DNA of 64,000 nt from Escherichia coli (GTDB lineage: Bacteria > Pseudomonadota > Gammaproteobacteria > Enterobacterales > Enterobacteriaceae), in the NCBI RefSeq assembly GCF_051903065.1, contig NZ_CP178438.1; one strand, given 5' to 3'. Below the pieces are notes generated by a model that worked only from the letters and a program-made list of their open reading frames with translations, had not been told where the DNA came from and did no database searches. Position 1 is the first letter of the stretch; each line of letters starts with the position of its first letter. Below, one piece after another: positions 3,181 through 55,617 of this stretch. The position numbers and the translations under genes are program-made.

Positions 3181-4062
3181 TTATCCCGGCAAAAAACACT
3201 CTTCAACACACTGAATAAAAATGTGCATCGCCGGGCTAACCGCTTTTCCAGCATGATGTGCGCACATTGCCGTAATGGTCTGCGACTGTTCGCCAAAAGG
3301 CAATTCAATTAATTCTCCGCTCTCAAGCTCTTTTTCCACCGCAAAGCGGGGCAAGTAACTGACACCGATATTCGCCGCGACACAACGTTTGATACTTTCA
3401 ATGCTTAACAGCTCAATGGTGTTTTCCACCGTGCTCCGCCGCTGGCGCAATGTGCTTTCAAAGATCTGCCGAAAGACACATTGCGGTTCGTTGATAATAA
3501 AGCTACAGGCGTTATGTCTTCCCGGCTCAGTAAAATCGACATCTGCAATTTGCGGTGAAGCTACCAGCACCAGCGATTGCTCACCCAATTCTCGTCGGTT
3601 CAGGGCATCATCATTCCCTACGCGATAAAAAACCCCGACATCGGCCTCATCATTCAGTAGCGCATCACGGATCACGTAACAGTTCAGAGACTGCAACGAT
3701 AAACGCACTTTTGGGGCGCGTTGCCGAAAACGCTGCAACACCTGCGGCATTCGGTAAGAGAGCAACGTTTCGCCCGAAACAACGCGTAGTTCCCCGTCCG
3801 GATCCGACTCCTTTTTGGCAGCCTCACGAAGGGTATCCATCACTCTGGTGAGTTCATAAATGTGCGGCAGCAGCTTTTTACCTTCGCGAGTGAGGCACAT
3901 CCGTCGGCCAATTTTCTCAAATAACTGTACCGAGAACTCCTGCTCAAGCTGCTGAATATGAAAAGTCACCGTCGATTGTGTACAGCACAATTTTTGCGAA
4001 GCTCGCAAAAAGGAACCCTCTTCCACCACGGTTTTAAGCGTAATAAAACGGCGCAGATCCAT
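3181..4062 (-). CDS. yfiE: LysR-family transcriptional regulator
   Basis: 293 aa from ATG at 4062 (MDLRRFITLK...), N-terminal HTH plus LysR substrate domain; divergent from eamB. Confidence 0.85.
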   Translation of the reverse strand: MDLRRFITLKTVVEEGSFLRASQKLCCTQSTVTFHIQQLEQEFSVQLFEKIGRRMCLTREGKKLLPHIYELTRVMDTLREAAKKESDPDGELRVVSGETLLSYRMPQVLQRFRQRAPKVRLSLQSLNCYVIRDALLNDEADVGVFYRVGNDDALNRRELGEQSLVLVASPQIADVDFTEPGRHNACSFIINEPQCVFRQIFESTLRQRRSTVENTIELLSIESIKRCVAANIGVSYLPRFAVEKELESGELIELPFGEQSQTITAMCAHHAGKAVSPAMHIFIQCVEECFLPG

Positions 4063-19810: not shown

Positions 19811-19991
19811 AAAAGTTTGATGCTCAAAGAATTAAACTTCGTAATGAATTACGTGTTCACTCTTGAGACTTGGTATTCATTTTTCGTCTTGCGACGTTAA
19901 GAATCCGTATCTTCGAGTGCCCACACAGATTGTCTGATAAATTGTTAAAGAGCAGTGCCGCTTCGCTTTTTCTCAGCGGCGCGGGGTGTGC

Positions 19992-20019
19992 ATAATACGC
20001 TTTCCCGCTACAGAGTCAA
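19992..20019 (-). promoter_or_regulatory. rRNA operon promoter P2 (-35 TTGACT, -10 TATTAT, 16-bp spacer)
   Basis: Hexamers read on the minus strand about 180-210 bp upstream of the mature 16S 5' end. Confidence 0.6.
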
Positions 20020-20100
20020 GCATTTATTTTTGCTTTCTCTGCCGGAATTCTCAGGAGAACCCCGCTGACCCGGCGGCGTGTTTGCCGTTGTTCCGTGTCA

Positions 20101-20150
20101 GTGGTGGCGCATTATAGGGAGTTATTCCGGCCTGACAAGCGAAAAATATA
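20101..20150 (-). promoter_or_regulatory. rRNA operon promoter P1 (-35 TTGTCA, -10 TATAAT, 16-bp spacer) with A/T-rich UP element
   Basis: Consensus-like hexamers on the minus strand with an A/T tract immediately upstream. Confidence 0.65.
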
Positions 20151-20221
20151 AAAACTTTATCGCTCGCTCACTTTTCAGGCAAAACATCTTAAATATAGTC
20201 TTTTCCGTCTAACTTATAGAC

Positions 20222-20249
20222 AAAAACGAGCCCCGAAGGGCTCGTTTTA
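20222..20249 (-). terminator. clpB terminator (palindrome)
   Basis: AAAACGAGCCC-CGAA-GGGCTCGTTTT just after the clpB stop. Confidence 0.75.
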
Positions 20250-20253
20250 TCAT

Positions 20254-22827
20254 TTACTGGACGGCGACAATCCGGTCTTCATTAACTTCCAGGCGAATCA
20301 CTTTACCCGGAACCAATTCACCAGACAGTATTTGCTGTGCCAGCGGGTTTTCGATCTGCTGCTGAATTGCACGTTTCAGAGGACGTGCACCATAGACCGG
20401 ATCGTAACCGTTCTCGCTCAGTAGTTTCAGCGCCTCGTCAGAAATGTGGATTTCATAACCACGTTCTTCCAGACGTTTATACAGACGTTTCAACTGAATC
20501 TGCGCAATCGACGCAATGTGCTGTTCACCCAGCGGATGGAAGACCACCACTTCATCGATACGGTTAATGAATTCCGGACGGAAGTTATGGCTAACCACAC
20601 CGAGCACCAGCTCTTTCATGTGCGCATAATCCAGTTCACCGAAGCGTTCCTGAATCAGATCGGAACCGAGGTTAGAGGTCATAATGACAACCGTATTACG
20701 GAAGTCGACCGTTCTCCCCTGCCCGTCAGTCAGACGCCCATCATCCAGTACCTGCAACAGAATATTGAAGACATCCGGATGCGCTTTTTCCACTTCATCC
20801 AGCAGGATGACGGAATACGGACGACGACGCACAGCTTCGGTCAGGTAGCCACCTTCTTCATAACCGACATATCCCGGAGGCGCACCAACCAGACGAGACA
20901 CCGAGTGTTTCTCCATAAACTCGGACATATCGATACGGACCATCGCCTCGTCGCTATCAAACATAAAGTTCGCCAGCGCCTTACAAAGCTCTGTTTTCCC
21001 CACACCAGTTGGGCCGAGGAACAGGAATGAACCAATCGGGCGATTTGGATCCGCCAGCCCCGCACGGCTACGACGAATAGCGTTAGATACCGCATCAACC
21101 GCTTCGTTCTGACCAATTACGCGATGGTGCAGTTCTTGCTCCATACGCAGCAGTTTTTCGCGCTCGCTTTCCATCATGCGAGAAACCGGAATCCCCGTCC
21201 AACGCGCCAGCACTTCAGCAATTTCGGCGTCGGTCACTTTATTACGCAACAGACGCATAGTTTTGCCTTCGAGCTGCGTTGCGGCTTCCAGTTGCTTTTC
21301 CAGTTCCGGGATTTTGCCGTATTGCAGTTCAGACATCCGCGCCAGGTCCCCCACACGGCGAGCCTGTTCAATAGCGATTTTCGCCTGTTCCAGTTCCGCT
21401 TTAATGGTCTGCGTACCAGAAAGCGATGCCTTCTCTGCTTTCCACTCTTCTTCTAACTCGGAGTACTGACGTTCTTTGTCGCTCAGTTCTTCGTTGAGCA
21501 TATCCAGGCGTTTTTTACTGGCTTCATCAGACTCTTTCATTAACGCCTGTTGTTCCAGTTTGAGCTGGATGATACGACGATCGAGTCGGTCGAGTTCTTC
21601 TGGTTTTGAGTCAATCTGCATACGAATGCTGGATGCTGCTTCATCGATCAGGTCGATGGCTTTATCCGGCAGCTGACGGTCAGCAATGTAGCGATGAGAC
21701 AACGTCGCCGCTGCAACAATTGCCGGGTCAGTAATTTGCACATGGTGGTGCAATTCGTAACGTTCTTTCAGGCCACGCAGAATCGCAATGGTATCTTCAA
21801 CAGAAGGCTCGGCAACAAACACTTTCTGGAAACGACGTTCCAGCGCAGCATCTTTTTCGATGTACTGGCGATATTCGTCAAGCGTCGTGGCACCTACGCA
21901 GTGCAATTCACCACGCGCCAGCGCCGGTTTCAGCATGTTTCCGGCGTCCATTGCGCCATCGGCTTTACCCGCGCCGACCATGGTATGTAATTCGTCGATA
22001 AACAGGATGACGTTGCCTTCCTGTTTGGCAAGATCGTTAAGCACGCCTTTTAAACGTTCTTCAAACTCACCGCGATATTTCGCCCCAGCCACCAGCGCGC
22101 CCATATCCAGCGCCAGTACCCGGCGGCCTTTCAACCCTTCCGGCACTTCGCCGTTGATAATACGCTGCGCCAGACCTTCAACGATGGCAGTTTTACCGAC
22201 GCCGGGTTCACCAATCAGTACCGGGTTATTTTTAGTACGACGTTGCAGCACCTGAATGGTACGGCGAATTTCTTCATCACGACCAATCACCGGATCGAGT
22301 TTGCCCTGTTCGGCTCGTTCGGTAAGGTCGATGGTATATTTTTTCAAAGCCTGACGTTGGTCTTCAGCACCTTGATCGTTCACGCTTTCACCTCCACGCA
22401 TTTGTTCAATCGCTTGAGTAATGTTGGCGGTGGTCGCCCCTGCTGCTTTCAGGATGTCGGCCAGCGTGCCGCGAGACTCAAGTGCCGCCAGAACGAACAG
22501 TTCTGACGAGATAAAGTTATCACCACGTTTTTGCGCCAGCTTGTCGCAAAGATTAAGAACGCGCACCAGATCCTGTGATGGCTGGACATCACCACCAGTA
22601 CCTTCAACCTGCGGTAAACGATTTAATGCCTGATTGATATCTGTGCGCAACTGGCCAGCATTTATGCCAGCTGATGTTAACAAAGGACTAACCGAACCCC
22701 CTTCCTGATTCAGCAGGGCGCTCATTAAATGAAGTGGTTCGATGAATTGGTTGTCGTGCCCGAGTGCAAGTGATTGGGCATCGGCAAGAGCAAGCTGGAA
22801 TTTATTAGTAAGACGATCCAGACGCAT
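20254..22827 (-). CDS. clpB: ClpB disaggregase (Hsp100)
   Basis: 857 aa from ATG at 22827 ([10 protein letters not shown]...); two AAA+ modules with Walker A GEPGVGKT and GPTGVGKT. Confidence 0.96.
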
Positions 22828-38657: not shown

Positions 38658-39284
<627 letters not shown>

Positions 39285-39373: not shown

Positions 39374-40252
39374 ATGAATAATCATTTCAAGTGTATTGGC
39401 ATTGTGGGACACCCACGGCACCCTACTGCACTGACAACACATGAAATGCTCTACCGCTGGCTGTGCACAAAAGGTTACGAGGTCATCGTTGAGCAACAAA
39501 TCGCTCACGAACTGCAACTGAAGAATGTGAAAACTGGCACGCTCGCGGAGATTGGGCAACTGGCTGATCTCGCGGTAGTCGTTGGTGGCGACGGTAATAT
39601 GCTGGGCGCGGCACGCACACTCGCCCGTTACGATATTAAAATTATTGGAATCAACCGTGGCAACCTGGGTTTCCTGACTGACCTTGACCCCGATAACGCC
39701 CAGCAACAGTTAGCCGATGTGCTGGAAGGCCACTACATCAGCGAGAAACGTTTTTTGCTGGAAGCGCAAGTCTGTCAGCAAGATTGCCAGAAACGCATCA
39801 GCACCGCGATAAATGAAGTGGTACTTCATCCAGGCAAAGTGGCGCATATGATAGAGTTCGAAGTGTATATCGACGAGATCTTTGCGTTTTCTCAGCGATC
39901 TGATGGGCTAATTATTTCGACGCCAACAGGCTCCACCGCCTATTCCCTCTCTGCGGGCGGTCCTATTCTGACCCCCTCTCTGGATGCGATTACCCTGGTG
40001 CCCATGTTCCCGCATACGTTGTCAGCACGACCACTGGTCATAAACAGCAGCAGCACGATCCGTCTGCGTTTTTCGCATCGCCGTAACGACCTGGAAATCA
40101 GTTGCGACAGCCAGATAGCACTGCCGATTCAGGAAGGTGAAGATGTCCTGATTCGTCGCTGTGATTACCATCTGAATCTGATTCATCCGAAAGATTACAG
40201 TTATTTCAATATATTAAGCACCAAGCTCGGCTGGTCAAAAAAATTATTCTAA
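39374..40252 (+). CDS. nadK: NAD kinase
   Basis: 292 aa; GGDG motif ([11 protein letters not shown]). Confidence 0.96.
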
Positions 40253-44135: not shown

Positions 44136-44498
44136 GGGGCTGATTCTGGATTCGACGGGATTTGCGAAACCCAAGGTGCATGCCGAGGGGCGGTTGGCCT
44201 CGTAAAAAGCCGCAAAAAATAGTCGCAAACGACGAAAACTACGCTTTAGCAGCTTAATAACCTGCTTAGAGCCCTCTCTCCCTAGCCTCCGCTCTTAGGA
44301 CGGGGATCAAGAGAGGTCAAACCCAAAAGAGATCGCGTGGAAGCCCTGCCTGGGGTTGAAGCGTTAAAACTTAATCAGGCTAGTTTGTTAGTGGCGTGTC
44401 CGTCCGCAGCTGGCAAGCGAATGTAAAGACTGACTAAGCATGTAGTACCGAGGATGTAGGAATTTCGGACGCGGGTTCAACTCCCGCCAGCTCCACCA
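44136..44498 (+). ncRNA. ssrA: tmRNA (transfer-messenger RNA)
   Basis: 363 nt from GGGGCTGATTCTGGATTCGACGGG to ...GGTTCAACTCCCGCCAGCTCCACCA; tag-ORF region present. Confidence 0.97.
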
Positions 44499-45417: not shown

Positions 45418-46518
45418 TTATTCCATTTCAAGATCATCAATCTTCACTTCGAGTTCAATACTGGTTGTAAAACCGTTATCCGGGCTGACGGTATGTGTCA
45501 GAGTCGTAATGGTCCATTCCGCATCATCTATCGGCTGTTTAAAGCCACTGACTTTCACTGGCATTTCCGTGTAGAGATCTGCCCGACCTTCCGCCAGTTG
45601 TAGCGAGAATGACGCAACGCCGCGTTGCAGGCGTTCCCACTGCATTTTCGCTGCCCGTTCAGCGTTGCTCCGGTTGGCATAAGTGCGATTAAGTACCAGC
45701 ACGTTTTCATCCGTACCCACCAGGTAATCGCCCTGCTTTGCTTCCGGCTCTTTCTTCTGCTTTGCGGTCCTGCGCTTACGCTTCACCGTGGTGCTTTCTT
45801 TCTTCGCGGGTTCGCGGGTATGCAACCAACTGGCAATTACGCCCGTATAGGCTCCGCGATCTGCCAGGGTAAAGCGGTGACTGTCGCCGTCCTTGCGTGT
45901 GATAGTGATCACCGGCAGAGGTTTACCGCTGGCGCTTTTGCCCTGTCCCTGCCGGATGAATAACAGATTGCCATTTTTCACCGACGCAATAGCACCGTAC
46001 TGGCGCGCCAGCCGCATCAGAAAACTGCCGTCACTCTCATTGGTCTGGTCTATATGTTCCACGGGCTTATCCGACAGGTCTTTACCCAGTGCCATCTTCA
46101 GCTTGTGCCGCGCGGCTATTTCCTTCACCACTTCCCCGACGGTGGTCTTGTGCCACGACTTTTCACGACGGGTATTCAGCGTTTCCCGAAAATCAGCACT
46201 TCGCGCCCGGATAGTCAGGCGGTCCGGTGCGCCAGTGTGTTCAATCTCGTCCACCGTGAATGCCCCTTTAGGGAAAAGCGGCTGCCCCTTCCAGCCCAGC
46301 GCCAGCGTAATGACCGCACCACGGCGCGGCAGCACGATTTTTCCGTCGGCGTCGTCCAGCTCCAGATCAAGCTGGTCCGCTTCAAAGCCCCGATTGTCCG
46401 TCAGAGTCAAACTCATCAGGCGGTTATCCAGCACAGTGGTGATATCCCTGCCCTCAATACTGATGCTGAATGCGGGAGTTTTGTTGCCTTTGTTAAGCAG
46501 TTCAGAGCTGAAATTCAC
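45418..46518 (-). CDS. D: tail protein D (P2 gpD-like)
   Basis: 366 aa at the position downstream of U; overlapping stop/start with U. Confidence 0.8.
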   Translation of the reverse strand: MNFSSELLNKGNKTPAFSISIEGRDITTVLDNRLMSLTLTDNRGFEADQLDLELDDADGKIVLPRRGAVITLALGWKGQPLFPKGAFTVDEIEHTGAPDRLTIRARSADFRETLNTRREKSWHKTTVGEVVKEIAARHKLKMALGKDLSDKPVEHIDQTNESDGSFLMRLARQYGAIASVKNGNLLFIRQGQGKSASGKPLPVITITRKDGDSHRFTLADRGAYTGVIASWLHTREPAKKESTTVKRKRRTAKQKKEPEAKQGDYLVGTDENVLVLNRTYANRSNAERAAKMQWERLQRGVASFSLQLAEGRADLYTEMPVKVSGFKQPIDDAEWTITTLTHTVSPDNGFTTSIELEVKIDDLEME

Positions 46519-47000
46519 GACAGCAGCCCTCCCACCGTTTTACTGATATCACTTAAGGCAGATGTTGCCGTGTCCTGCAGATTATTCAGTTGCGTACTGA
46601 GATCACCGAACATATCGGACAGGGATTCATCCACCCGTTTGAGCGACAGGGTGAACTCAATCCGGCGCGGCATACCGTCGCGGAAAAACTCCGTTTTAGT
46701 CAGATTCAGTCCCTCAATCACATACATGCCGTAAATCGTGCCGCTGCCTTCAATCAGGGGCCATGCTTTTCCCTGTTCTGCCATCTGCTCCAGAGCCAGC
46801 AACGACAGCCTGCCGCCCGTTATCTCCGGCATAAGAACACCAGAAAGCGTCAGCATGTCGTTGTCCGGTCCCAGAAACTGCGTGGACGGACGACGGTTTA
46901 CCCGGCTGTTTGCCGCATGTCGCCAGCTGCGTTGATACTGCAGTTCCTGATACGGAACGGTGCGCAGCATAAACACGTACAATCCCAGCACCATCATCAT
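46515..47000 (-). CDS. U: tail protein U (P2 gpU-like)
   Basis: 161 aa, position and size as P2 gpU; 4-nt overlaps with T and D. Confidence 0.8.
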   Translation of the reverse strand: MMMVLGLYVFMLRTVPYQELQYQRSWRHAANSRVNRRPSTQFLGPDNDMLTLSGVLMPEITGGRLSLLALEQMAEQGKAWPLIEGSGTIYGMYVIEGLNLTKTEFFRDGMPRRIEFTLSLKRVDESLSDMFGDLSTQLNNLQDTATSALSDISKTVGGLLS

Positions 47001-50000
47001 GCGTCGTATCCCCCCTGATCGCTGTAGTTACTCCTGGCTTTTGCCTTCAGCCTGCGTTCACGTTCATCAAGCTGGCGTGCCACCTCCCGCGCAATATCCT
47101 GCGCACTTTGTCCTGGCTGCGTCTGAATGATGATCTGCGTCGGTGCCTCAATCCGGTGAACGGGCGGCACAGTGGCTGCACGACTCACCATCGCTTCGCC
47201 GCCTTTCGCGGGAAGTGCCAAAGGATGCAACGGTGGAAGCTCTGCAGGCGCGGCAGCAACGCCCATCATTCCGGCAACAACGGCAGCCAGTGCAGCTGTA
47301 TTTCTCCGGCTGGTCACATTTGCCGGGCCGTTAACAATTTCCGGCCCGTTTTCACCGACGATGCCAAACTGCCCGCGCGGGATATAGCCGCCGCTGTCAT
47401 ACATCCCCGCAAAGCCATATCCCCATGACGGAAAACCACCCGGTGGCATCATCACTTTACCGTCTGCATTCACCGTCGCAGGTTGCTGACGCGTCACTCT
47501 TTCCGGCAGTTTCGCCTTTGCAGCCTCTTTACTGACAATGCCGAGTTTCTCCAGCAACCAGGAAACGCCGGATTTCAGGGAGTCCAGCGGATGCATGACC
47601 ATATTCAGCCCTTCCGCCAGTGCCTCCCCGAATCGTCGCCCCATTGCCGCTGCGCTCTGCAGTTCGGCAGAGGTCGACTTAACGGGCGTCAGCAGATCAG
47701 TAAACCAGCCCCACAACGCCTGCACTTTGTCGCCAATCCACTGAAACACAGGCTTAAGTGGTTCGAATGCTGCACTGATGGGACCTGCCGCCGCTTTGAA
47801 TCCTTCCACCACACCAGCGAGAAATGCGGTGATGGGTTGCCAGTATTTCCAGACAACCAGCGCCACGCCCGCCAGTGCAGTAACCACAAGACCTATCGGA
47901 CTGAGCAGAGCACCTAACAGACCAGATATGGCATACAGGGCAACGCGCAGCATCGCCAGCGGACCAGATGCAAGCACACGAAGCACCGCGCCTGCGGCAG
48001 CCAGTCCACCGCGCAGTACCGCCAGAGGATTCATAAACATCACAGCAACCGCACGTAAACCGGATAATCCAGACCGCAATAGTGCAACCGGCGCACCTGC
48101 TACAGTTTTCAGGACATTTCCCGTCAGTGATGCCGTACGGCGCAAAGACGACAACGGCGCAGTAAGTAAACCCGCTGCGTTACCCGATGAAGCAAGCCCG
48201 CGTCGCAGCACTGCCAGTGGTGCGCCTGCCAGCCAGGACAAAGCGTTGCTGGTTCGGGTTACTGCTGCCGTAACGGAAGGTAACGTTTTGATACCCAGCA
48301 CAGAGAGTCCCAGACGGATGACTGCCAGCGGCCCCAGCACTGCAGCCAGCGCCACCGCTAAGGTGCCGAGGCCCACGGTAACGGCAGCCACCACTGCGGC
48401 TACTTTCATCAGAGTGCCCGTCAGTTCCGGGTTAGCTTCCACCCAGCGACGCAACGCCCCCGTGACGCTTTTCACCGTGTACAGAATATCCATCAGCGGC
48501 TGGCGCAGCGTTTCGCCCAGGCTGCTGAAGGTGTTCTGTGCTCCGGTTTTGACCAGCAACCACTGAGCAGAAAGTGAGTCTTTGTTGATGTCGGATTCTT
48601 TCTGCATGGAGCCGAGCGCATCATTGCCCGCAGTCAGTTTTAGCTGGCGCTGTAGTTCCGGCAGGTTGTTTGCCAGTTTCGCCGCGTCATCGCCAAACTC
48701 TTTACCAAACAACATGGTCATGGCAGACAGACGCTTATCCTGCGGCAGTGCGTTCACCTTCTCCAGCACACGCTGGATAGTTCCCATCGCATCCTTCGTC
48801 ATCTGCTTTTCAATCACTTCAGGATTGAGTTTCAGCAGATTCATCCCTTCAAAGAAACTCTTGCTTTGCATGGTGGCAATGGACAATTCACGCACCATCG
48901 CGTTTGCTGCACTGGCTGCAACCTCCGGCGCAGCGCCCAGTGTCAGAAAGGTGGAACCCAGTGCCGCAGCTTTACGATAATCCAAACGGTCAGCCACACC
49001 ACCCAGGCGTTGCATGACATCAATAATGTCCGCCCCTTTCGACATGGCGTTATCATCCAGATAGTTCAGCGCATCACCGAGCTGTTCAATATTGCGGGTA
49101 GGGATTTTGTAGAGCTGGGCGATTTTCCCCAGACTTTCTGACAGTTCATCCGCTGGCAGCTCAAAGGCTGTTGCCGCCTTTGCTGCCGTACTGGCGAAGG
49201 CCAGCAGGTCACGTTTCTGGTCCTCCCAGCTGTCGTCAGGGTTTGCGACGTTCATGCGCGCCCCACCTTCAACCAGTGCAGCGAAATCCACCGCACCGTT
49301 TTCCATCGGCAACTGTTCGCTGGCAGCCTTGATGGCATCCTGCATTTCATAAAAACGTGCAGTGGGGTTGCCATTATCGTCACGCAGACCATTGACCTGC
49401 TTTGCCACACCTTTCATGGCATCTTCCATGCTGGTATAGATTTTTACTGCCGCCATCACTGGTGCGCCCATTGCCAGCCCTGCAGCCGTGGTGGTGGCTC
49501 CGGCACCTGCAATACGATCACGCACCTCCAGCGAACGGGCATAACTGGCACGCGCTGCATTCATCCTGCGCTGAGCTTCCCCCAGTCGCTTCAGCCGCGC
49601 CTCCTGTTTCGAAAGTTCCTGGTTATAACGTGATGTTTCACGGGCTAAACGGGCAGTTGCTCCCGCATCATCTTTCGCAGAAATTCCCGCCCGGTACAGT
49701 TCAGCACGCACAAGCGCCGTTTGCTTCTGCAAATATTTTTGTTGTTCTTCCAGGCGTTGGACTGCCAGCGTTTGCCGACCTAAAGCCACAAGATGCCTTT
49801 GTGATGGTTGCTCCATCGCCTCCAGCTCAGAGCTAAGCAAATTAGCCTTCTGTCTGGCATAGTTCAGCCTGTCGCCTAACTTCTTGTTATCAGCCTGCAG
49901 CTTGCGAAATTTTTCCAGGCTGTTACCCGCCTGATTGAGTTGCTTTAATGCGTCACGGGAGTTTCTGATTGCGCCAGCCAGCTCTTTCGAACTGGCCTGT

Positions 50001-50074
50001 GCAGCACGGAATGGGCGGGTGAGTTTGTCAACCGCATTAAGAATGACCTGCAGGCGCAGGTTGTTATCACTCAT
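46997..50074 (-). CDS. T: tail tape-measure protein (P2 gpT-like)
   Basis: 1025 aa, coiled-coil N-terminal part, hydrophobic repeat region, C-terminal Gly-rich part; downstream of E/E'. Confidence 0.88.
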   Translation of the reverse strand: MSDNNLRLQVILNAVDKLTRPFRAAQASSKELAGAIRNSRDALKQLNQAGNSLEKFRKLQADNKKLGDRLNYARQKANLLSSELEAMEQPSQRHLVALGRQTLAVQRLEEQQKYLQKQTALVRAELYRAGISAKDDAGATARLARETSRYNQELSKQEARLKRLGEAQRRMNAARASYARSLEVRDRIAGAGATTTAAGLAMGAPVMAAVKIYTSMEDAMKGVAKQVNGLRDDNGNPTARFYEMQDAIKAASEQLPMENGAVDFAALVEGGARMNVANPDDSWEDQKRDLLAFASTAAKAATAFELPADELSESLGKIAQLYKIPTRNIEQLGDALNYLDDNAMSKGADIIDVMQRLGGVADRLDYRKAAALGSTFLTLGAAPEVAASAANAMVRELSIATMQSKSFFEGMNLLKLNPEVIEKQMTKDAMGTIQRVLEKVNALPQDKRLSAMTMLFGKEFGDDAAKLANNLPELQRQLKLTAGNDALGSMQKESDINKDSLSAQWLLVKTGAQNTFSSLGETLRQPLMDILYTVKSVTGALRRWVEANPELTGTLMKVAAVVAAVTVGLGTLAVALAAVLGPLAVIRLGLSVLGIKTLPSVTAAVTRTSNALSWLAGAPLAVLRRGLASSGNAAGLLTAPLSSLRRTASLTGNVLKTVAGAPVALLRSGLSGLRAVAVMFMNPLAVLRGGLAAAGAVLRVLASGPLAMLRVALYAISGLLGALLSPIGLVVTALAGVALVVWKYWQPITAFLAGVVEGFKAAAGPISAAFEPLKPVFQWIGDKVQALWGWFTDLLTPVKSTSAELQSAAAMGRRFGEALAEGLNMVMHPLDSLKSGVSWLLEKLGIVSKEAAKAKLPERVTRQQPATVNADGKVMMPPGGFPSWGYGFAGMYDSGGYIPRGQFGIVGENGPEIVNGPANVTSRRNTAALAAVVAGMMGVAAAPAELPPLHPLALPAKGGEAMVSRAATVPPVHRIEAPTQIIIQTQPGQSAQDIAREVARQLDERERRLKAKARSNYSDQGGYDA

Positions 50075-50503
50075 CGTTGGCCCCGCATCTCTGAATCGCT
50101 TTATACCGCCATTCCAGCACTTCGGTCAGCGGCATAACGTCAGTAACGGATGGCGGCCAGTGAAAAATGGTGGCGATATCTGCCACCAGATCGTCAACCG
50201 TCAGGCTGTCGGTAAACCGGCAAGTACCGACTTCTTCAACAAAAAAGTGACAACCTCAACCGACATAGCGGTGAGATCTGCCGGGTCCATCTCTGCAATT
50301 TCCTGTGCAGTCAGTGCCGGGCTGGAGATGCGGGGGATCACGGTCATCATCGCGTTCACATCCATATCCATAATGGCCTGCAGGCGTGTACCGCGCAGTG
50401 CACCGGACTGCGGTTTACGCAGCACAATTTCGGTGATTTCCGTTTTACCGCGCTTGATAGGGGTATCCAGTTGAATAGTCTTTTCAGTCTGCTTATCGCT
50501 CAT
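50067..50503 (-). CDS. E': tail assembly chaperone E' (E plus -1 frameshift extension, about 145 aa)
   Basis: -1 frame is open from the slippery site T-TTT-TTG (50246-50240) to a TGA at 50069-50067, overlapping the T start codon by 8 nt. Confidence 0.7.
50201..50503 (-). CDS. E: tail assembly chaperone E (P2 gpE-like)
   Basis: 100-aa ORF between FII and T containing the slippery heptamer near its 3' end. Confidence 0.8.
   Translation of the reverse strand: MSDKQTEKTIQLDTPIKRGKTEITEIVLRKPQSGALRGTRLQAIMDMDVNAMMTVIPRISSPALTAQEIAEMDPADLTAMSVEVVTFLLKKSVLAGLPTA
50240..50246 (-). promoter_or_regulatory. programmed -1 ribosomal frameshift slippery heptamer TTTTTTG
   Basis: Heptamer in X-XXY-YYZ register within E (codons ACT-TTT-TTG). 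Confidence 0.7.
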
Positions 50504-50557
50504 TTTTCTGTCCTGTAAATTGGGTTCTGGCGCGGCATTCCGCGCCGTTCAGATACA

Positions 50558-51073
50558 TCAGAGGCCGAGTGCGTTGCGGTGCGCTTCCATCAGGTCCACA
50601 CCGTCCACAATTTCCACCATGTTGATAAGGTCCACTTCATAGAGCACCTCACCATTGATAGTCAGCTTCGCGTAGCTGTTGGTACTGGTCACTTTGGTGG
50701 TGTTGCTTTCGCCCGTCTTCCACTCGCCGGAATCCACTTCTTTGTGACGTCCACGCACCACAAGCTCCACGGCCTGCACTTCTCCGGTATCGTCACGCTG
50801 GATAGAGCCGGTGAAGCGCAACTGGATGCCATCCACCGTGGCTTTGCCCATCTGTTTAAACAGCAGCAGTTCAGTACCACCAATGGAAAATTCTGTGTCC
50901 AGCGCACTGTCATCAAGCCCCAGATCCACATCCACTGCACCCGGCATTCCGCCGCCGCGATACTTCTCATATTTGCGGGTGAATTTCGGCAGCGTCAGCG
51001 ACTCAACGATCCCCTGCCAGTTGTTCCCGTCATTAAACAGGTTCAGGTGTTTTAATTTGCGTGGTAAAGCCAT
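50558..51073 (-). CDS. FII: tail tube protein (P2 gpFII-like)
   Basis: 171 aa immediately downstream of the sheath gene. Confidence 0.85.
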   Translation of the reverse strand: MALPRKLKHLNLFNDGNNWQGIVESLTLPKFTRKYEKYRGGGMPGAVDVDLGLDDSALDTEFSIGGTELLLFKQMGKATVDGIQLRFTGSIQRDDTGEVQAVELVVRGRHKEVDSGEWKTGESNTTKVTSTNSYAKLTINGEVLYEVDLINMVEIVDGVDLMEAHRNALGL

Positions 51074-51082
51074 GTTGTCCCC

Positions 51083-52255
51083 TTACGCGCTGACCTGGCT
51101 GGAGAAATTCACCAGGTACTGATCGGTGATGCGCTGACGCAGCATCAGGTTTTCAAGTGGCGGCACTGGCGTGTAGTCGTAGTCGATGGTGAGTTTTCCG
51201 GCTTTCAGCGTGTCTTTGTCGTTCACCGACTCATCCAGCCAGCAATCACCACCAATGAGATAGCCCTGACTGACCAGGCTGCGCATTTTGGCGCGGATAC
51301 CCTCGATAATGTCGCGGGCCAGCGACGGATTCAGCGGTTTATCCACCGCCCACATGTGCGCTTCTGCCATCGTGTCCGTCAGCACCTGCGCCGTGCGGGT
51401 GTAGTTTTCGAAGGCAAAGAGCGGGTCATCACTCAGGCAGCGGGAACCCCAGAAGCGAAAACCGTCTTTGCGGATAAGGGTGGTGACGTCGTTCTGGTTC
51501 AGCAGTCCCGCATCGGTTGCCGGGTCCTGCAGATCCCAGAACACATCAGCAGAAATTCCGGTGACACCGTTAACGCCCACGTTGGACAGGCTTTTGTGCC
51601 ATCCGGTCTGCTCGTCAATTTTGGCGCGCAGACCAAGCGCACGGGCGGTGGCATAAGCCGTTGCTTCGGCATTCAGCACCGTGTCCCAGCCAGTAAAGTC
51701 GGGCCAGATCAGCATTCCTTCGCGCTGGCTGAAGTTTTCACGGTAAGTGATCGCCTCCTGTACCGTCTTGCAGCCATACGCTGACAGGTAGGCAAACCCA
51801 CGCAGGCTTTGCGCCACGCTCAGCAACTCAGTAGCAACGGCTTTGTTATCGTGACCTGGCACGCCGAGAATGCGCGGTTTAACGCCGAGCTGTGTCTGGG
51901 CAGATAACAGGGCTTTCATGCCTGTTTTTTTACCTTCAGCAGTCACTGCGCCGATGATATTGGTCGTGGTTTCTTCTTCCGTTTCACCCTGCGGCACACG
52001 CACAACAACGGTCACTGGTTTTGCCTGGTCAGCGATGGCATCCAGCGAACGGGCCAGCGTGCCGGACTCACCCGCTTTACCGCTGGCAGTCAGCACATCA
52101 GTGATCAGCACGGGTTTATTAAGAGGAAACATTTTTGCATCGGCATCATCGCCCGTGCAGACCATACCCACGATGGCGGTGCTCACCGTGGTAATGGATC
52201 GGGTGCCTTCGTTGACTTCAGCAACGCGCACCCCGTGGTGGTAATCCTGAGCCAT
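51083..52255 (-). CDS. FI: contractile tail sheath protein (P2 gpFI-like)
   Basis: 390 aa, sheath-like sequence, first gene of the FI-FII-E-T-U-D operon. Confidence 0.88.
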
Positions 52256-52397: not shown

Positions 52398-52964
52398 TCA
52401 GGGCGATTCATTGCTCTCATTCGCCGGAAATTTTCTATAAATGGTAGAAACGCCCACATCAAAAATCAGTGCAATACGCTGTCTTGATTCTCCGGCCTCG
52501 AGTAAACGTCCAATCTGTGCCCACTGTTCGGTGGTCAACTTAGGACGGCGTCCACCTACTCTGCCTTTGGCACGAGCTGCAGCCAGCCCTGCTCTGGTAC
52601 GTTCAACTATCAGTTCACGTTCCATTTCAGCCAGAGCCCCCATGACGTGAAAAAAGAAACGGCCCATTGGGGTACTGGTATCAATACTGTCAGTCAGGCT
52701 TCGGAAATTCACACCACGCTGGCGCAACTCTTCTATCAGCGTAACAAGATGCCGCATACTGCGCCCCAGTCTATCCAGCTTCCAGACAACCAGCGTGTCT
52801 CCTGCCGATAGTGTCCTGAGCAGTTTTTTAAGCCCCGGTCTGTCGGACTTAGTGCCACTGATTTTATCCTCAAAAATCCGCTCACATCCCGCGCAGTTCA
52901 GTGCATTACGTTGCAAATCGGTGTTCTGGTCATTTGTTGACACGCGTACATAGCCAATAAGCAT
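52398..52964 (-). CDS. serine DNA invertase (Hin/Gin/Pin family)
   Basis: 188 aa from ATG at 52964: MLIGYVRVSTNDQNTDLQ... with catalytic Ser region and C-terminal HTH (GVSTIYRKF); ORF-track upstream extension rejected. Confidence 0.9.
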   Translation of the reverse strand: MLIGYVRVSTNDQNTDLQRNALNCAGCERIFEDKISGTKSDRPGLKKLLRTLSAGDTLVVWKLDRLGRSMRHLVTLIEELRQRGVNFRSLTDSIDTSTPMGRFFFHVMGALAEMERELIVERTRAGLAAARAKGRVGGRRPKLTTEQWAQIGRLLEAGESRQRIALIFDVGVSTIYRKFPANESNESP

Positions 52965-53019
52965 GATCAATCCCCTGAATAAAAACCGGGGATGATGCCA
53001 GTTAGCCATTATCTCTGCA

Positions 53020-53045
53020 TTTTCTTAAACGTTGGTTTGGGAGAA
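53020..53045. repeat. hix/gix-like 26-bp inversion site (left)
   Basis: TTTTCTTAAACG-TT-GGTTTGGGAGAA; bottom strand reads TTCTCCCAAACC-AA-CGTTTAAGAAAA; shares 14 bp with the right site in inverted orientation. Confidence 0.75.
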
Positions 53046-53468
53046 GGTTCGGCATTACCCGTTGGTGTGCCTGTTCCGTGGCCTTCTGCAATACCGCCTA
53101 CTGGCTGGCTGAAATGTAACGGTGCGGCTTTTTCTGCCGTTGAATATCCTAAACTGGCGAGGGTTTACCCGACAAATAAATTACCTGATTTACGCGGTGA
53201 GTTTATTCGTGGCTGGGATGATGGGCGTGGAGTGGATAGTGGGCGCGCGTTATTATCAACTCAAACAGATGAATTTAAATCACATAGTCATTATTTCGAA
53301 AGAACATGGGCACAAACTGGATTTGATACAACAGGTGGATATTATCTTTTAGCCGCTGATGTTTCTGGCTCAGTAAATCAACAGAGATCCGATAGCACTA
53401 ACTCGGTGGGGGGGAGAGAATCTCGCCCTCGTAATATTGCATTTAACTATATTGTGAGAGCTGTGTAA
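53033..53468 (+). CDS. alternative tail-fibre C-terminal segment, promoterless in this orientation
   Basis: Frame continuous through the left site; encodes GLGEGSALPVGVPVPWP...LPDLRG...SHSHYF...NIAFNYIVRAV, the P2 gpH-type C-terminal pattern. Confidence 0.75.
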
Positions 53469-54073
53469 TGGATAATGCTGTATTAAATAGCGAACATATT
53501 GCTACGAAGGCTGGAAATGTTACTGTTTATAACTTTGACGGTGAAACGCGAGAGTATATTTCCCCATCTATTGAATATATTGCCGTTGGTGTCGGTATTC
53601 CGGCATATTCATGTTTAGATGCTCCTGCCACACGTAAAGATGGTTATGCTATTTGCCGTTCTGCAGGCTTAAACTCATGGGAATATATACCAGACCATCG
53701 CAGTGAAATTGTCTATAGCACTGAAACAGGAGAATCAAAAGAAATCACAGCTCTGGGGGATTACCCTGAAAATACAACCATTATCGCCCCATTAACGCCA
53801 TACGATAAATGGGATGGTGAGAAATGGGTGACGGATACCGAGGCACAGCGTAGCGCCGCAGTAGACGCGGCAGAAGCACAGCGCCAGTCGCTGATTGATG
53901 CTGCTATGGCTTCCATTAGCCTGCTTCAACTGAAATTACAGGCCGGACGGAAGCTGACGCAAGCAGAAACAACCCGACTAAACGCCGTGCTGGATTACAT
54001 TGACGCGGTGATGGCAACGGATACCAGCAACGCGCCGGGGGTTATCTGGCCAGTTCCACCTGAGATGGTTTAA
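53468..54073 (+). CDS. tail-fibre assembly chaperone (Tfa/gpG-like) for the alternative fibre segment
   Basis: 201 aa, start overlaps upstream stop (TAATG); C-terminal pattern ...TDTSNAPGVIWPVPPEMV typical of Tfa proteins. Confidence 0.8.
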   Translation: MDNAVLNSEHIATKAGNVTVYNFDGETREYISPSIEYIAVGVGIPAYSCLDAPATRKDGYAICRSAGLNSWEYIPDHRSEIVYSTETGESKEITALGDYPENTTIIAPLTPYDKWDGEKWVTDTEAQRSAAVDAAEAQRQSLIDAAMASISLLQLKLQAGRKLTQAETTRLNAVLDYIDAVMATDTSNAPGVIWPVPPEMV

Positions 54074-54225
54074 TCTCAATCAGAATGGGTTCGCCCTTCT
54101 CGTTAACAGATATTTCCATTCCTTCAGGGATTTCAGATGCAGTAAAAAACCAGTTATCTTCTGGTAATTCAACAGCCCCGGTCACGTCATGAAGACCGGG
54201 GATTACTTCAGTCAAAGTAACAGGA
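54042..54225 (-). CDS. short ORF downstream of H (possible truncated or non-canonical Tfa); uncertain
   Basis: Only about 61 codons are open after the H stop in this frame and no ATG with a clear RBS is present; the track's 95-aa ORF overlaps H. Confidence 0.25.
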
Positions 54226-55617
54226 TTAAACAGGCGCACAATAAACTCTCCAAGAAAAAGCACTTGTTGATGGTCTTCCGTCGTACATCTGGCAGCGGAC
54301 ATAAAAACCGGTATTAGTGACCTGGTCATCCACGATCATTGAAACGTGAACGTTATTAGATGTGCTCCCGTAATCCGTTCTTATTCTTTCCGCTATGCTG
54401 ATAAAACGTGAAAGCTTAGGTAGCGCAATTGGATAAACGACTTTAGCCAGTCCATTATCATTAGAACCACCCGTTCCAAAGACTTCTATTGCACCATCTG
54501 ACCAGCGTATCCATGCACCATTGGCATTAGCTCCTCGTTGAATGACATATCTGGCTTCTCCCAAACCAAGGTATGCGAGAAGACCAGCTACATCCTTTCC
54601 ACTCAAATTGGTAAGCGTATTGTCCAGCGGTTGTTTACCTGCCAGCGCATTAAGCATTGTCGTGGCAAAGTTCGGATCATTCCCCAGTGCCGCCGCCAGT
54701 TCGTTCAGTGTATCCAGTGCCGCAGGTGCAGAACCCACCATTGCTGCAATCGCTGATTTCACAAAAGCCGTGGTGGCAATCTGTGTATTGTTGACCGACT
54801 GTGCCGCAGTAGGTGCGGTTGGCGTTCCGGTGAGTGCCGGACTCGACAGCGGCGCTTTCAGTGCCAGTGCATTGTTAATGGTGGTACTGAATTTCGGATC
54901 ATTGTTAATGGCTGCGGCTATTTCTTTCAGCGTGTCCAGCGTGGCTGGCGCACCATTAATAAGAGCCGTCAGAGCCGCCTGAACAAACGCGGTGGTCGCA
55001 ATCTGCGTGGTGTTATTCCCTGCTGCTGGCGTTGGCGCTTTGGGTGTCCCGGTAAACGTCGGACTTTCTTTGGGTGCATACTGTGAATGCGGGTCCGGTG
55101 CGGCAAGATGTTTTGCCATCTGATCATCCGCGTACACCTTCAGCTCCAGTGCCTTGTCATCCACATACTTGCGGGTTGCCAGCACTACAGCAGGGTCGAT
55201 TTTCAGGGTGATATTGTCCGTGCTGCTGGTAATCAGCACCATGCGCACGGTCTGAGTGCGCCCGCTACCTTCAGCCAGTTGCGGCTTATAGCTTTCCGGG
55301 CAGTTGCCCACGGCAATCAATGCCTCGGACTCATCAAACAGGCCCACTTCACGAATCCACCAACCGCCCTCGTTTTCAGGGATCACCTGTTCGGCAATAA
55401 TCTGGCTGCTGTTCTGCGGGTCGATATAGAGCATATTCAGCGCAGCCCGGCGTTTCTCATTTACCAGTGCAGTCTGCTTTGAGTCTGGCGTTGGCAATAC
55501 TCCGCCGCCATCGCCGACCGCCATATGGGTAATTTTTAGCGGCACACCGAGCGCGGCGGCGCTGGCAAGTTTCGCCGCGCCAATATCCGTCAGCAGGGTA
55601 TAAAATTTTGTGCTCAT
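54226..55617 (-). CDS. H: tail fibre protein (P2 gpH-like), currently expressed variant
   Basis: 463 aa; conserved N-terminal part, two about 70-aa Ala/Thr-rich repeats, junction ...AYLGLGEA at the right inversion site, then a distinct C-terminal domain ending YCAPV. Confidence 0.88.
   Translation of the reverse strand: MSTKFYTLLTDIGAAKLASAAALGVPLKITHMAVGDGGGVLPTPDSKQTALVNEKRRAALNMLYIDPQNSSQIIAEQVIPENEGGWWIREVGLFDESEALIAVGNCPESYKPQLAEGSGRTQTVRMVLITSSTDNITLKIDPAVVLATRKYVDDKALELKVYADDQMAKHLAAPDPHSQYAPKESPTFTGTPKAPTPAAGNNTTQIATTAFVQAALTALINGAPATLDTLKEIAAAINNDPKFSTTINNALALKAPLSSPALTGTPTAPTAAQSVNNTQIATTAFVKSAIAAMVGSAPAALDTLNELAAALGNDPNFATTMLNALAGKQPLDNTLTNLSGKDVAGLLAYLGLGEARYVIQRGANANGAWIRWSDGAIEVFGTGGSNDNGLAKVVYPIALPKLSRFISIAERIRTDYGSTSNNVHVSMIVDDQVTNTGFYVRCQMYDGRPSTSAFSWRVYCAPV
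54546..54571. repeat. hix/gix-like 26-bp inversion site (right), inside H
   Basis: TTCTCCCAAACC-AA-GGTATGCGAGAA; 12-bp imperfect inverted half-sites around a central AA, close to hixL as recalled. Confidence 0.75.

What the first reader, a model, noticed from the sequence alone, without database searches (positions are those of the whole stretch)
50067..50503. Conserved E/E' programmed -1 frameshift upstream of the tape-measure gene
The heptamer T-TTT-TTG lies in-register near the end of E. The -1 frame then stays open for 57 codons and terminates 8 nt inside the T start region, giving a ~145-aa fusion chaperone, analogous to lambda G/GT and close to the P2 E' size I recall.
Basis: partly seen in the sequence, partly recalled or inferred. 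Interest (0 to 1): 0.35.

Follow-up and report, generated by a model that had tools for sequence, protein, structure and literature searches.

The report
P2-type E/E' tail-chaperone frameshift site
This is the well-known programmed -1 ribosomal frameshift that P2-like phages use to make a short and a long tail-assembly chaperone from one gene start, here in an ordinary P2-like prophage, so it is real but already understood.

Summary
Gene E (50503..50201, minus strand, 100 aa) carries T TTT TTG in register at 50246..50240. From that point the -1 frame is open for 57 codons. It stops at 50069..50067, 8 nt inside the tape-measure gene T (ATG at 50074), so the fusion protein would be 145 aa.

The 0-frame part matches Pfam Phage_TAC_7 up to the slip site. 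The -1 part matches Pfam Phage_P2_GpE (E=2e-17). The genes around it are sheath, tube, E, T, U and D, as in P2. The GenBank record of P2 marks the homologous heptamer as the site of a -1 frameshift.

All 37 diverged lineages I compared keep an in-register slippery heptamer at this position, against 0.67 expected from their protein sequences. All 98 diverged loci checked have the E' part in the -1 frame.

The only practical gap is annotation. RefSeq and the closest phage records list E' as a separate 39-aa gene starting at GTG 50186, which is probably wrong.

I found no convincing stimulatory RNA structure. An upstream Shine-Dalgarno-like GAGG is only weakly supported.

Verdict: real, functional by homology, already known, low interest.

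The parts
50201..50503 (-). Gene E, the short tail-assembly chaperone (100 aa, 0-frame product, stop TGA 50203..50201). AGGA at 50514..50511 is its likely ribosome-binding site.
   Evidence: ORF and translation. Pfam PF10109 Phage_TAC_7, E=1e-18, residues 9-88. PHROG 103 'tail protein', E=4e-44.
50240..50246 (-). Slippery heptamer T TTT TTG in the X XXY YYZ register (P-site TTT is codon 87, A-site TTG is codon 88).
   Evidence: Read directly from the sequence. Same heptamer at the homologous codon in P2, where it is annotated as the frameshift site. Conserved in 37/37 diverged lineages against 0.67 expected from protein sequence alone.
50067..50240 (-). E' extension: 57 codons in the -1 frame plus stop TGA 50069..50067. 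The fused product E+E' is join(50503..50240, 50240..50067), 145 aa.
   Evidence: Translation. Pfam PF06528 Phage_P2_GpE, E=2e-17, at fusion residues 107-143. PHROG 1756 covers residues 3-57 of the extension.
50067..50074 (-). ATGAGTGA: the E' stop codon overlaps the T start codon by 8 nt.
   Evidence: Sequence. The same 8-nt overlap is annotated in P2, RE-2010 and 186. Overlaps of 4-26 nt occur in 16 of 18 diverse relatives.
46997..50074 (-). Gene T, tape-measure protein (1025 aa), presumed client of the chaperones.
   Evidence: Pfam PF10145 PhageMin_Tail. Annotated as tape measure in relatives.
50558..51073 (-). Gene FII, tail tube protein (context, upstream neighbour of E).
   Evidence: Pfam PF04985 Phage_tube, E=9e-60.
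51083..52255 (-). Gene FI, tail sheath protein (context).
   Evidence: Pfam PF04984, PF17482 and PF22671.
50254..50257 (-). [quoted passage not shown] Weak support.
   Evidence: Meets the motif and spacing criteria of Sharma et al. 2014 (PMC4066793). Found in 23/37 lineages against 16.3 expected from protein sequence.
50208..50231 (-). Possible 7-bp hairpin GTCGGTA-N10-TACCGAC starting 8 nt after the heptamer. Not statistically supported.
   Evidence: Folding z=-0.5 against dinucleotide shuffles. One compensatory T-A to C-G change in two Kapieceevirus-like relatives. No comparable structure across the family.
50184..50186 (-). GTG used by automatic annotation as the start of a stand-alone 39-aa 'GpE family' gene. 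Probably not a real start.
   Evidence: Annotated this way. No Shine-Dalgarno sequence upstream. The column is GCC, TGG, ATT or GTT in four relatives.

Best explanation
The region is the E/E+E' tail-assembly-chaperone gene pair of a P2-like (Peduoviridae) prophage.

Most ribosomes read E in frame and stop at 50201, giving the 100-aa gpE. A minority slip back one base when tRNA-Phe sits on TTT in the P site and tRNA-Leu sits on TTG in the A site of T TTT TTG (50246..50240). Both tRNAs re-pair on TTT TTT. Translation then continues in the -1 frame for 57 codons and gives a 145-aa protein, gpE+E'. This protein shares its first 88 residues with gpE and ends 5 nt after the ATG of the tape-measure gene T.

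By analogy with lambda gpG/gpGT, both proteins would bind the tape-measure protein, and the E' domain would link the complex to the tail tube during assembly. The fixed slip frequency would set the ratio of the two proteins.

Shown here: the sequence anatomy, homology of both halves, and conservation of the signal at synonymous sites. Inferred: that slippage occurs in this prophage, how often it occurs, and the protein functions.
For: - **Anatomy.** It is exactly as described.
- **Homology.** The 0-frame part matches PF10109 up to residue 88, which is the slip site. The -1 part matches PF06528.
- **Context.** Sheath, tube, E, T, U, D.
- **P2 reference.** tblastn with the fusion finds 419 phage records, 387 of them covering at least 80% of the query; all but three of the 60 rows shown align as two pieces. 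The P2 record annotates gpE+E' as a joined CDS with a -1 frameshift at the same heptamer. KS14 and Midge annotate joined CDSs, and 186 notes a probable frameshift.
- **Diverse genera.** Eighteen diverse Peduoviridae genera all have an in-register slippery heptamer at the homologous codon, with 51-71 open -1 codons.
- **IMG/VR loci.** In 80 of 80 diverged loci the E' domain is in the -1 frame with T TTT TTN in the overlap. In the close set, 79 of 80 have TTTTTTG.
- **Synonymous sites.** The heptamer is kept in 37/37 lineages against 0.67 expected from the amino-acid sequences. The base before it is T after codons for six different residues.
- **Translated linker.** The linker between the slip site and the Pfam domain is conserved as protein in the -1 frame and is covered by PHROG 1756.
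- **Literature.** The P2 frameshift at TTTTTTG gives E (91 aa) and E+E' (142 aa). E' lacks a ribosome-binding site, and the arrangement is conserved among P2-like phages (PMC3091744; PMC3931495). The lambda G/GT mechanism is described in PMC5009743.
Against: - No expression data exist for this prophage, and it may be silent or defective.
- U UUU UUG is not among the most efficient heptamers in E. coli (PMC4066793).
- I found no significant downstream stimulatory structure.
- A GTG at 50186 could in principle start a separate 39-aa product, which is how RefSeq annotates it.
- The original P2 paper (Christie et al. 2002) is not in the held library. Its results are cited second-hand. The roughly 10% efficiency is from my memory only.
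Confidence: 0.93

Rival explanations
1. E' is a separate small gene. A 39-aa 'GpE family phage tail protein' would be started independently at GTG 50186, with no frameshift.
For: This is how PGAP/RefSeq and the closest phage records annotate it. Most relatives have ATG or GTG at this column. The Pfam model PF06528 begins exactly there.
Against: - There is no Shine-Dalgarno sequence upstream of the GTG in the window.
- The column is GCC, TGG, ATT or GTT in RSA1, VHML, Mannheimia and ST16phi5.4.
- The -1 frame is open from the heptamer to this column in every one of the 98 diverged loci, although the linker varies from about 12 to 29 codons.
- The linker is conserved as protein and matches PHROG 1756 from residue 3.
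- Independent initiation would not explain 37/37 conservation of the heptamer at synonymous sites.
- In P2, E' is reported to lack a ribosome-binding site and to be made as an extension of E.
Confidence: 0.03
2. The frame change happens at the RNA level. RNA polymerase would stutter on the T6 run and insert one extra U, so that a fraction of mRNAs encode E+E' in one frame.
For: The site is a homopolymer run of six T. One inserted U would give the same -1 frame product. Transcriptional slippage is known for other recoded genes (PMC5009743).
Against: - Six residues is short for efficient slippage (my knowledge, not tested).
- Homologous sites in relatives are not homopolymers: G GGA AAG, C CCT TTC and A AAT TTT. 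These fit tandem tRNA slippage but not polymerase stuttering.
- The run is in the exact X XXY YYZ register in all 98 diverged loci. Ribosomal slippage requires this register; transcriptional slippage does not.
Confidence: 0.03
3. The signal is an inert relic. The prophage is cryptic and the E/E' region is no longer expressed or selected.
For: Only part of the prophage lies in the window. Nothing here shows that it can be induced.
Against: All tail genes examined are full-length and match their families. The region is 97-99.5% identical to isolated Klebsiella phages and to prophages in 990 of 5426 complete E. coli genomes, with the heptamer intact. This rival concerns activity, not the identity of the feature.
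Confidence: 0.02

Closest known systems
Bacteriophage P2 gpE / gpE+E' programmed -1 frameshift (Christie et al. 2002; GenBank AF063097)
   Same: - Same gene position between FII and T.
- Same heptamer TTTTTTG at the homologous codon.
- Same 57-codon -1 extension and the same 8-nt overlap with T.
- Both halves are homologous: 47.5% identity over the fusion, with PF10109 and PF06528.
   Different: E is 100 aa rather than 91, and the fusion is 145 aa rather than 142. The 0-frame tail after the slip site is 12 residues rather than 6 and is unrelated in sequence. T is 1025 aa rather than 815 (P2 T spans 19850..22297). The prophage belongs to the Elveevirus/Felsduovirus-like group, not Peduovirus.
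Klebsiella phage 4 LV-2017 (Elveevirus) and E. coli / Klebsiella prophages of the same lineage
   Same: 97.5-99.5% nucleotide identity across the tube-E-E'-T region, with identical heptamer and frames.
   Different: Those records annotate E' as a separate 39-aa gene, not as a frameshift product.
Phage lambda gpG / gpGT tail assembly chaperones
   Same: Two products share an N terminus through a -1 frameshift near the end of the upstream gene, between the major tail gene and the tape-measure gene. The proposed roles are binding the tape measure and recruiting the tube subunit (PMC5009743; PMC3091744).
   Different: No Pfam family of lambda G or T was hit. Lambda's heptamer is G GGA AAG (my knowledge). 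Lambda has a non-contractile tail, whereas this phage has a sheath.
E. coli dnaX and IS911/IS3 -1 frameshift signals
   Same: X XXY YYZ tandem slippage. The window also has an SD-like GAGG at a spacing that meets published criteria for a stimulator.
   Different: Those signals have proven upstream SD and downstream hairpin or pseudoknot stimulators. Here the downstream structure is not significant, and the SD-like element is only weakly enriched beyond what the protein sequence imposes.

Membership tests
P2-type E/E+E' tail chaperone frameshift (Peduoviridae) | Gene lies between the tail tube gene (FII) and the tape-measure gene (T) in an FI-FII-E-T-U-D operon | tested here: met
   Pfam assignments of the neighbours: sheath, tube, PhageMin_Tail, GpU, GPD.
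P2-type E/E+E' tail chaperone frameshift (Peduoviridae) | 0-frame product homologous to gpE | tested here: met
   PF10109, E=1e-18. Aligns with P2 gpE.
P2-type E/E+E' tail chaperone frameshift (Peduoviridae) | -1 frame ORF homologous to E' that overlaps the end of E | tested here: met
   PF06528, E=2e-17, in the -1 frame. The -1 frame is open from the heptamer, 13 codons before the E stop.
P2-type E/E+E' tail chaperone frameshift (Peduoviridae) | In-register slippery heptamer (TTTTTTG) at the homologous position | tested here: met
   Heptamer at 50246..50240 over codons 86-88. Aligned with P2's annotated site.
P2-type E/E+E' tail chaperone frameshift (Peduoviridae) | E' lacks its own translation initiation signal | tested here: inconclusive
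   A GTG exists at 50186 but has no SD upstream, and the start codon is not conserved in 4 of the relatives. Absence of initiation cannot be proven from sequence.
P2-type E/E+E' tail chaperone frameshift (Peduoviridae) | E' stop overlaps the T start | tested here: met
   ATGAGTGA at 50074..50067. Same overlap in P2.
P2-type E/E+E' tail chaperone frameshift (Peduoviridae) | Fusion protein actually made, and essential for tail assembly | not testable with these tools
   Needs protein detection and genetics. Reported for P2 in the literature.
Lambda G/GT-type conserved tail-chaperone frameshift (Xu, Hendrix and Duda 2004 class) | Two overlapping ORFs joined by a slippery sequence, between the major tail gene and the tape-measure gene | tested here: met
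Lambda G/GT-type conserved tail-chaperone frameshift (Xu, Hendrix and Duda 2004 class) | Sequence homology to lambda gpG/gpT | tested here: not met
   Pfam hits are only to the P2-type families. The literature also reports no similarity between the P2 and lambda proteins. Shared architecture and mechanism, not family membership.
dnaX/IS-type stimulated -1 frameshift signal | Upstream SD-like element 6-17 nt before the motif | tested here: inconclusive
   GAGG at a spacing of 8 nt. Found in 23/37 lineages against 16.3 expected from protein sequence, nominal P=0.003 ignoring relatedness.
dnaX/IS-type stimulated -1 frameshift signal | Stable hairpin or pseudoknot 5-9 nt downstream | tested here: not met
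   The 7-bp hairpin 8 nt downstream has z=-0.5, and the family-wide z-scores range from -2.2 to +1.0 with no common structure. This agrees with the literature for P2.

The most novel reading that the evidence does not exclude
The P2-type signal may have cis elements that have not been described.

- An upstream Shine-Dalgarno-like element (GAGG or AGGTG, 6-8 nt before the heptamer) could boost an otherwise weak U UUU UUG.
- In this lineage, a terminator-like hairpin plus U5 lies inside E' (50188..50168), 13 nt after the E stop. Only frameshifted ribosomes would unwind it, which could tie transcription or translation of T-U-D to the frameshift event.
- The conserved overlap between the E' stop and the T start would add translational coupling of T to the frameshifted ribosomes.
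Probability: 0.08. Interest if true: 0.35.

Novelty: already known. Interest (0 to 1): 0.08.

Why it matters
For biology it matters little. It is one more copy of a textbook recoding event whose conservation among P2-like phages was published in 2002-2004.

The practical value is in annotation. The same region occurs in 990 of 5426 complete E. coli genomes and in many Klebsiella phages. There the 145-aa product is missing and a probably spurious 39-aa gene is listed instead. The 37/37 conservation at synonymous sites gives a simple rule for correcting those records.

Tried and rejected
1. **Downstream stimulatory structure.** A 7-bp hairpin at 50231..50208 sits at the classic 8-nt spacing and has one compensatory change in relatives. 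Its folding energy is not better than shuffles (z=-0.5), and no common structure exists across 20 relatives (an 87-nt fold gave z=-2.6, driven by other helices). Rejected as unsupported.
2. **Hairpin at the conserved ADIA motif.** The scan flagged 50188..50168 as terminator-like. Across 37 lineages this 30-nt segment has mean z=-2.2 against dinucleotide shuffles, while the rest of the gene is near 0. Resampling synonymous codons shows that the peptide itself imposes most of this: -8.5 against -10.9 kcal/mol, z=-0.78, with a control segment at -0.55. P2 and 186 lack the hairpin. Left as unresolved and probably incidental.
3. **SD-like element.** Enrichment looked strong against raw background (12/18 and 11/20 against about 10%). 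It shrinks to 23 observed against 16.3 expected once the protein sequence is fixed.
4. **Independent start at GTG 50186 and transcriptional slippage.** Both were considered and judged unlikely (see rivals).
5. **Database searches with no result.** The PDB sequence search gave no hit. NCBIfam gave no hit for the fusion.
6. **Literature access.** Christie et al. 2002 could not be read, by DOI or by PMC id. Two searches failed because a term was too short.
7. **Control set caveat.** My greedy gene set for the chance estimate dropped E itself in favour of a 179-aa shadow ORF on the other strand. It therefore serves only as background.

Full report
**1. The observation**

On the minus strand, an ORF runs from ATG 50503 to TGA 50203..50201 and encodes 100 aa. 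Its codons 86-88 are ACT TTT TTG. The heptamer T TTT TTG at 50246..50240 is therefore in the X XXY YYZ register needed for tandem -1 slippage.

Reading on from base 50240 in the -1 frame gives VEEVGTCRFTDSLTVDDLVADIATIFHWPPSVTDVMPLTEVLEWRYKAIQRCGANDE. That is 57 codons, ending at TGA 50069..50067. The next gene starts at ATG 50074, so the string ATGAGTGA holds both the start of T and the stop of E', an 8-nt overlap. The fusion would be 88 + 57 = 145 aa.

As a background, I looked at the window's likely coding ORFs. Only 4.7% of codon positions are followed by 57 or more open -1 codons. Only 44 of 18,011 positions carry an in-register slippery heptamer.

**2. What it is**

- The 0-frame protein matches Pfam PF10109 (Phage_TAC_7, tail assembly chaperone E; E=1e-18). 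The match ends at residue 88, which is exactly the slip site.
- The -1 frame part matches PF06528 (Phage P2 GpE; E=2e-17).
- PHROGs place both parts in tail families. PHROG 1756 covers the extension from its third residue, so it includes the linker upstream of the Pfam domain.
- The neighbours are the tail sheath (51083..52255), tail tube (50558..51073), a 1025-aa tape-measure protein (46997..50074), GpU (46515..47000) and GpD (45418..46518). This is the FI-FII-E-T-U-D operon of P2.
- The prophage end lies next to the tmRNA gene at 44136..44498.
- The DNA is 97.5-98% identical to Klebsiella phage 4 LV-2017 (Elveevirus) and many other Klebsiella phages. It is up to 99.5% identical to prophages present in 990 of 5426 complete E. 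coli genomes.

**3. Relation to the known case**

A tblastn search with the 145-aa fusion found 419 phage records. In 387 of them one place covers at least 80% of the query, and all but three of the 60 rows shown align as two pieces, as expected when the two halves lie in different frames. P2 itself aligns at 47.5% identity.

The P2 GenBank record annotates gpE, a joined CDS gpE+E' ('-1 frameshift; essential tail protein'), and a feature 'site of -1 translational frameshift' in the same TTTTTTG. KS14 and Midge carry joined CDSs, and 186 notes a probable frameshift.

The literature held here says that P2 shifts at TTTTTTG to give E (91 aa) and E+E' (142 aa). It also says that E' lacks a ribosome-binding site and that the arrangement is conserved among P2-like phages and parallels lambda G/GT (PMC3091744; PMC3931495; PMC5009743). 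I could not read the primary paper, Christie et al. 2002.

**4. Conservation tests**

In 18 phages from different Peduoviridae genera, plus VHML and a Zymomonas plasmid prophage, every E gene has an in-register slippery heptamer at the homologous codon. It is followed by 51-71 open -1 codons that contain the E' domain. Most heptamers are TTTTTTG. Variants are TTTTTTC, TTTTTTT, G GGA AAG, C CCT TTC and A AAT TTT.

In 80 further diverged IMG/VR loci (45-75% identical to a Pseudomonas homologue), E' is in the -1 frame in all 80. A T TTT TTN heptamer lies in the overlap in all 80. In 80 close relatives, 79 have TTTTTTG.

I then held the three amino acids at the site fixed and resampled synonymous codons. 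A slippery heptamer would be expected in 0.67 of 37 lineages, yet it is present in all 37. The base before the run is T after codons for Gly, Ser, Thr, Leu, Asp and Val. This is selection on the nucleotide sequence, which is the signature of a recoding signal.

The 0-frame tails after the site vary in length (5-22 residues) and are largely unrelated outside the closest relatives. The -1 frame is conserved as protein.

**5. Mechanism**

The best-supported mechanism is tandem -1 slippage. tRNA-Phe on TTT and tRNA-Leu on TTG re-pair on TTT TTT, and decoding then resumes at GTT (50240).

This is inferred from homology to P2 and from the register and synonymous-site conservation. It has not been shown for this prophage.

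The function is also an inference, by analogy to lambda: both products act as chaperones of the tape measure, and the E' domain links the complex to the tube.

The E' stop overlaps the T start in 16 of 18 relatives. This suggests translational coupling of T to the few ribosomes that shifted. That is my inference and is untested.

**6. Stimulators**

- A 7-bp hairpin (50231..50208) starts 8 nt after the heptamer and shows one compensatory change in relatives. It is no more stable than shuffled sequence (z=-0.5), and the family has no common structure there. This agrees with published statements for P2.
[quoted passage not shown] Such elements occur in 23 of 37 lineages against about 10% background. 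The protein sequence alone predicts 16.3, so the excess is small and the lineages are not independent.
- A terminator-like hairpin plus T5 lies inside E' (50188..50168). The segment is unusually structured across the family against dinucleotide shuffles (mean z=-2.2). Synonymous resampling shows that the conserved peptide D-A-M-A-D-L-A-V imposes most of this (z=-0.78), and P2 and 186 lack it. I treat it as probably incidental.

**7. Rivals**

- **Independent initiation at GTG 50186.** This is how RefSeq annotates E'. It is unlikely for five reasons: there is no SD; the start column is not conserved; the -1 frame is always open back to the heptamer; the linker is conserved as protein; and the heptamer is conserved at synonymous sites.
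- **Transcriptional slippage on T6.** This is unlikely because the homologous sites include non-homopolymeric heptamers and are always in codon register.
- **Inactive prophage.** Whether the prophage is active cannot be told from the window.

**8. Verdict**

It is the already known P2 E/E+E' programmed frameshift in an ordinary, very common P2-like prophage. The only useful by-product is that public annotation of this lineage omits the frameshift product.

Noticed in passing
window 50168-50188 (minus strand): A terminator-like element lies inside E': a 7-bp GC-rich hairpin TGGTGGC-AGATATC-GCCACCA followed by TTTTT, 13 nt after the E stop. A hairpin at this peptide motif recurs across the family but is mostly imposed by the amino-acid sequence.
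   Followed up: yes
window 50254-50257 (minus strand): [quoted passage not shown] Similar elements occur in 23/37 lineages, against 16.3 expected from protein sequence.
   Followed up: yes
window 52398-55617: This looks like an invertible tail-fibre segment. It has a serine recombinase (Resolvase + HTH_7, 52398..53009, minus strand) and 27-nt imperfect inverted repeats at 53020-53046 and 54555-54581. An alternative fibre C-terminus (52992..53468, Collar domain) and a fibre-assembly gene (53468..54073) lie on the opposite strand to the fibre gene 54226..55617.
   Followed up: partly
window 44136-44498 (plus strand): A tmRNA gene (tag ANDENYALAA) lies about 900 bp from the D gene at the prophage end. 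The attachment site itself was not mapped. In E. coli TO6 the same tail operon ends next to ybjL instead (L181).
   Followed up: partly
window 50184-50186; L001, L002, L004, L181: RefSeq/PGAP and several phage records annotate E' as a separate 39-aa 'GpE family phage tail protein' starting at this GTG, with no joined frameshift CDS. The Pfam model PF06528 begins at exactly this residue, so it may have been built from such truncated ORFs.
   Followed up: yes
window 50529-50546 (minus strand): A GC-rich hairpin GGCGCGG-AATG-CCGCGCC lies between the tube gene stop and the E start, without a T-run. Phage 186 annotates a partial terminator (tI) and the Mannheimia phage a rho-independent terminator at the same intergenic position.
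   Followed up: no
window 39266 (plus strand) and 3196 (minus strand): Two other in-register heptamers are followed by long open -1 frames. TTTTTTC at 39266 has a -1 frame that is simply the next gene (39374..40252, 4-nt overlap). TTTTTTG at 3196 lies 5 codons before the end of a 308-aa ORF, with 80 open codons that lie antisense to a 444-aa plus-strand ORF. Both look like chance.
   Followed up: no
L001 (CP019275.1): A 37.4-kb circular 'plasmid' of E. coli 13P477T carries the same P2-like tail operon at 98% identity. It may be a phage maintained or assembled as a circular episome.
   Followed up: no
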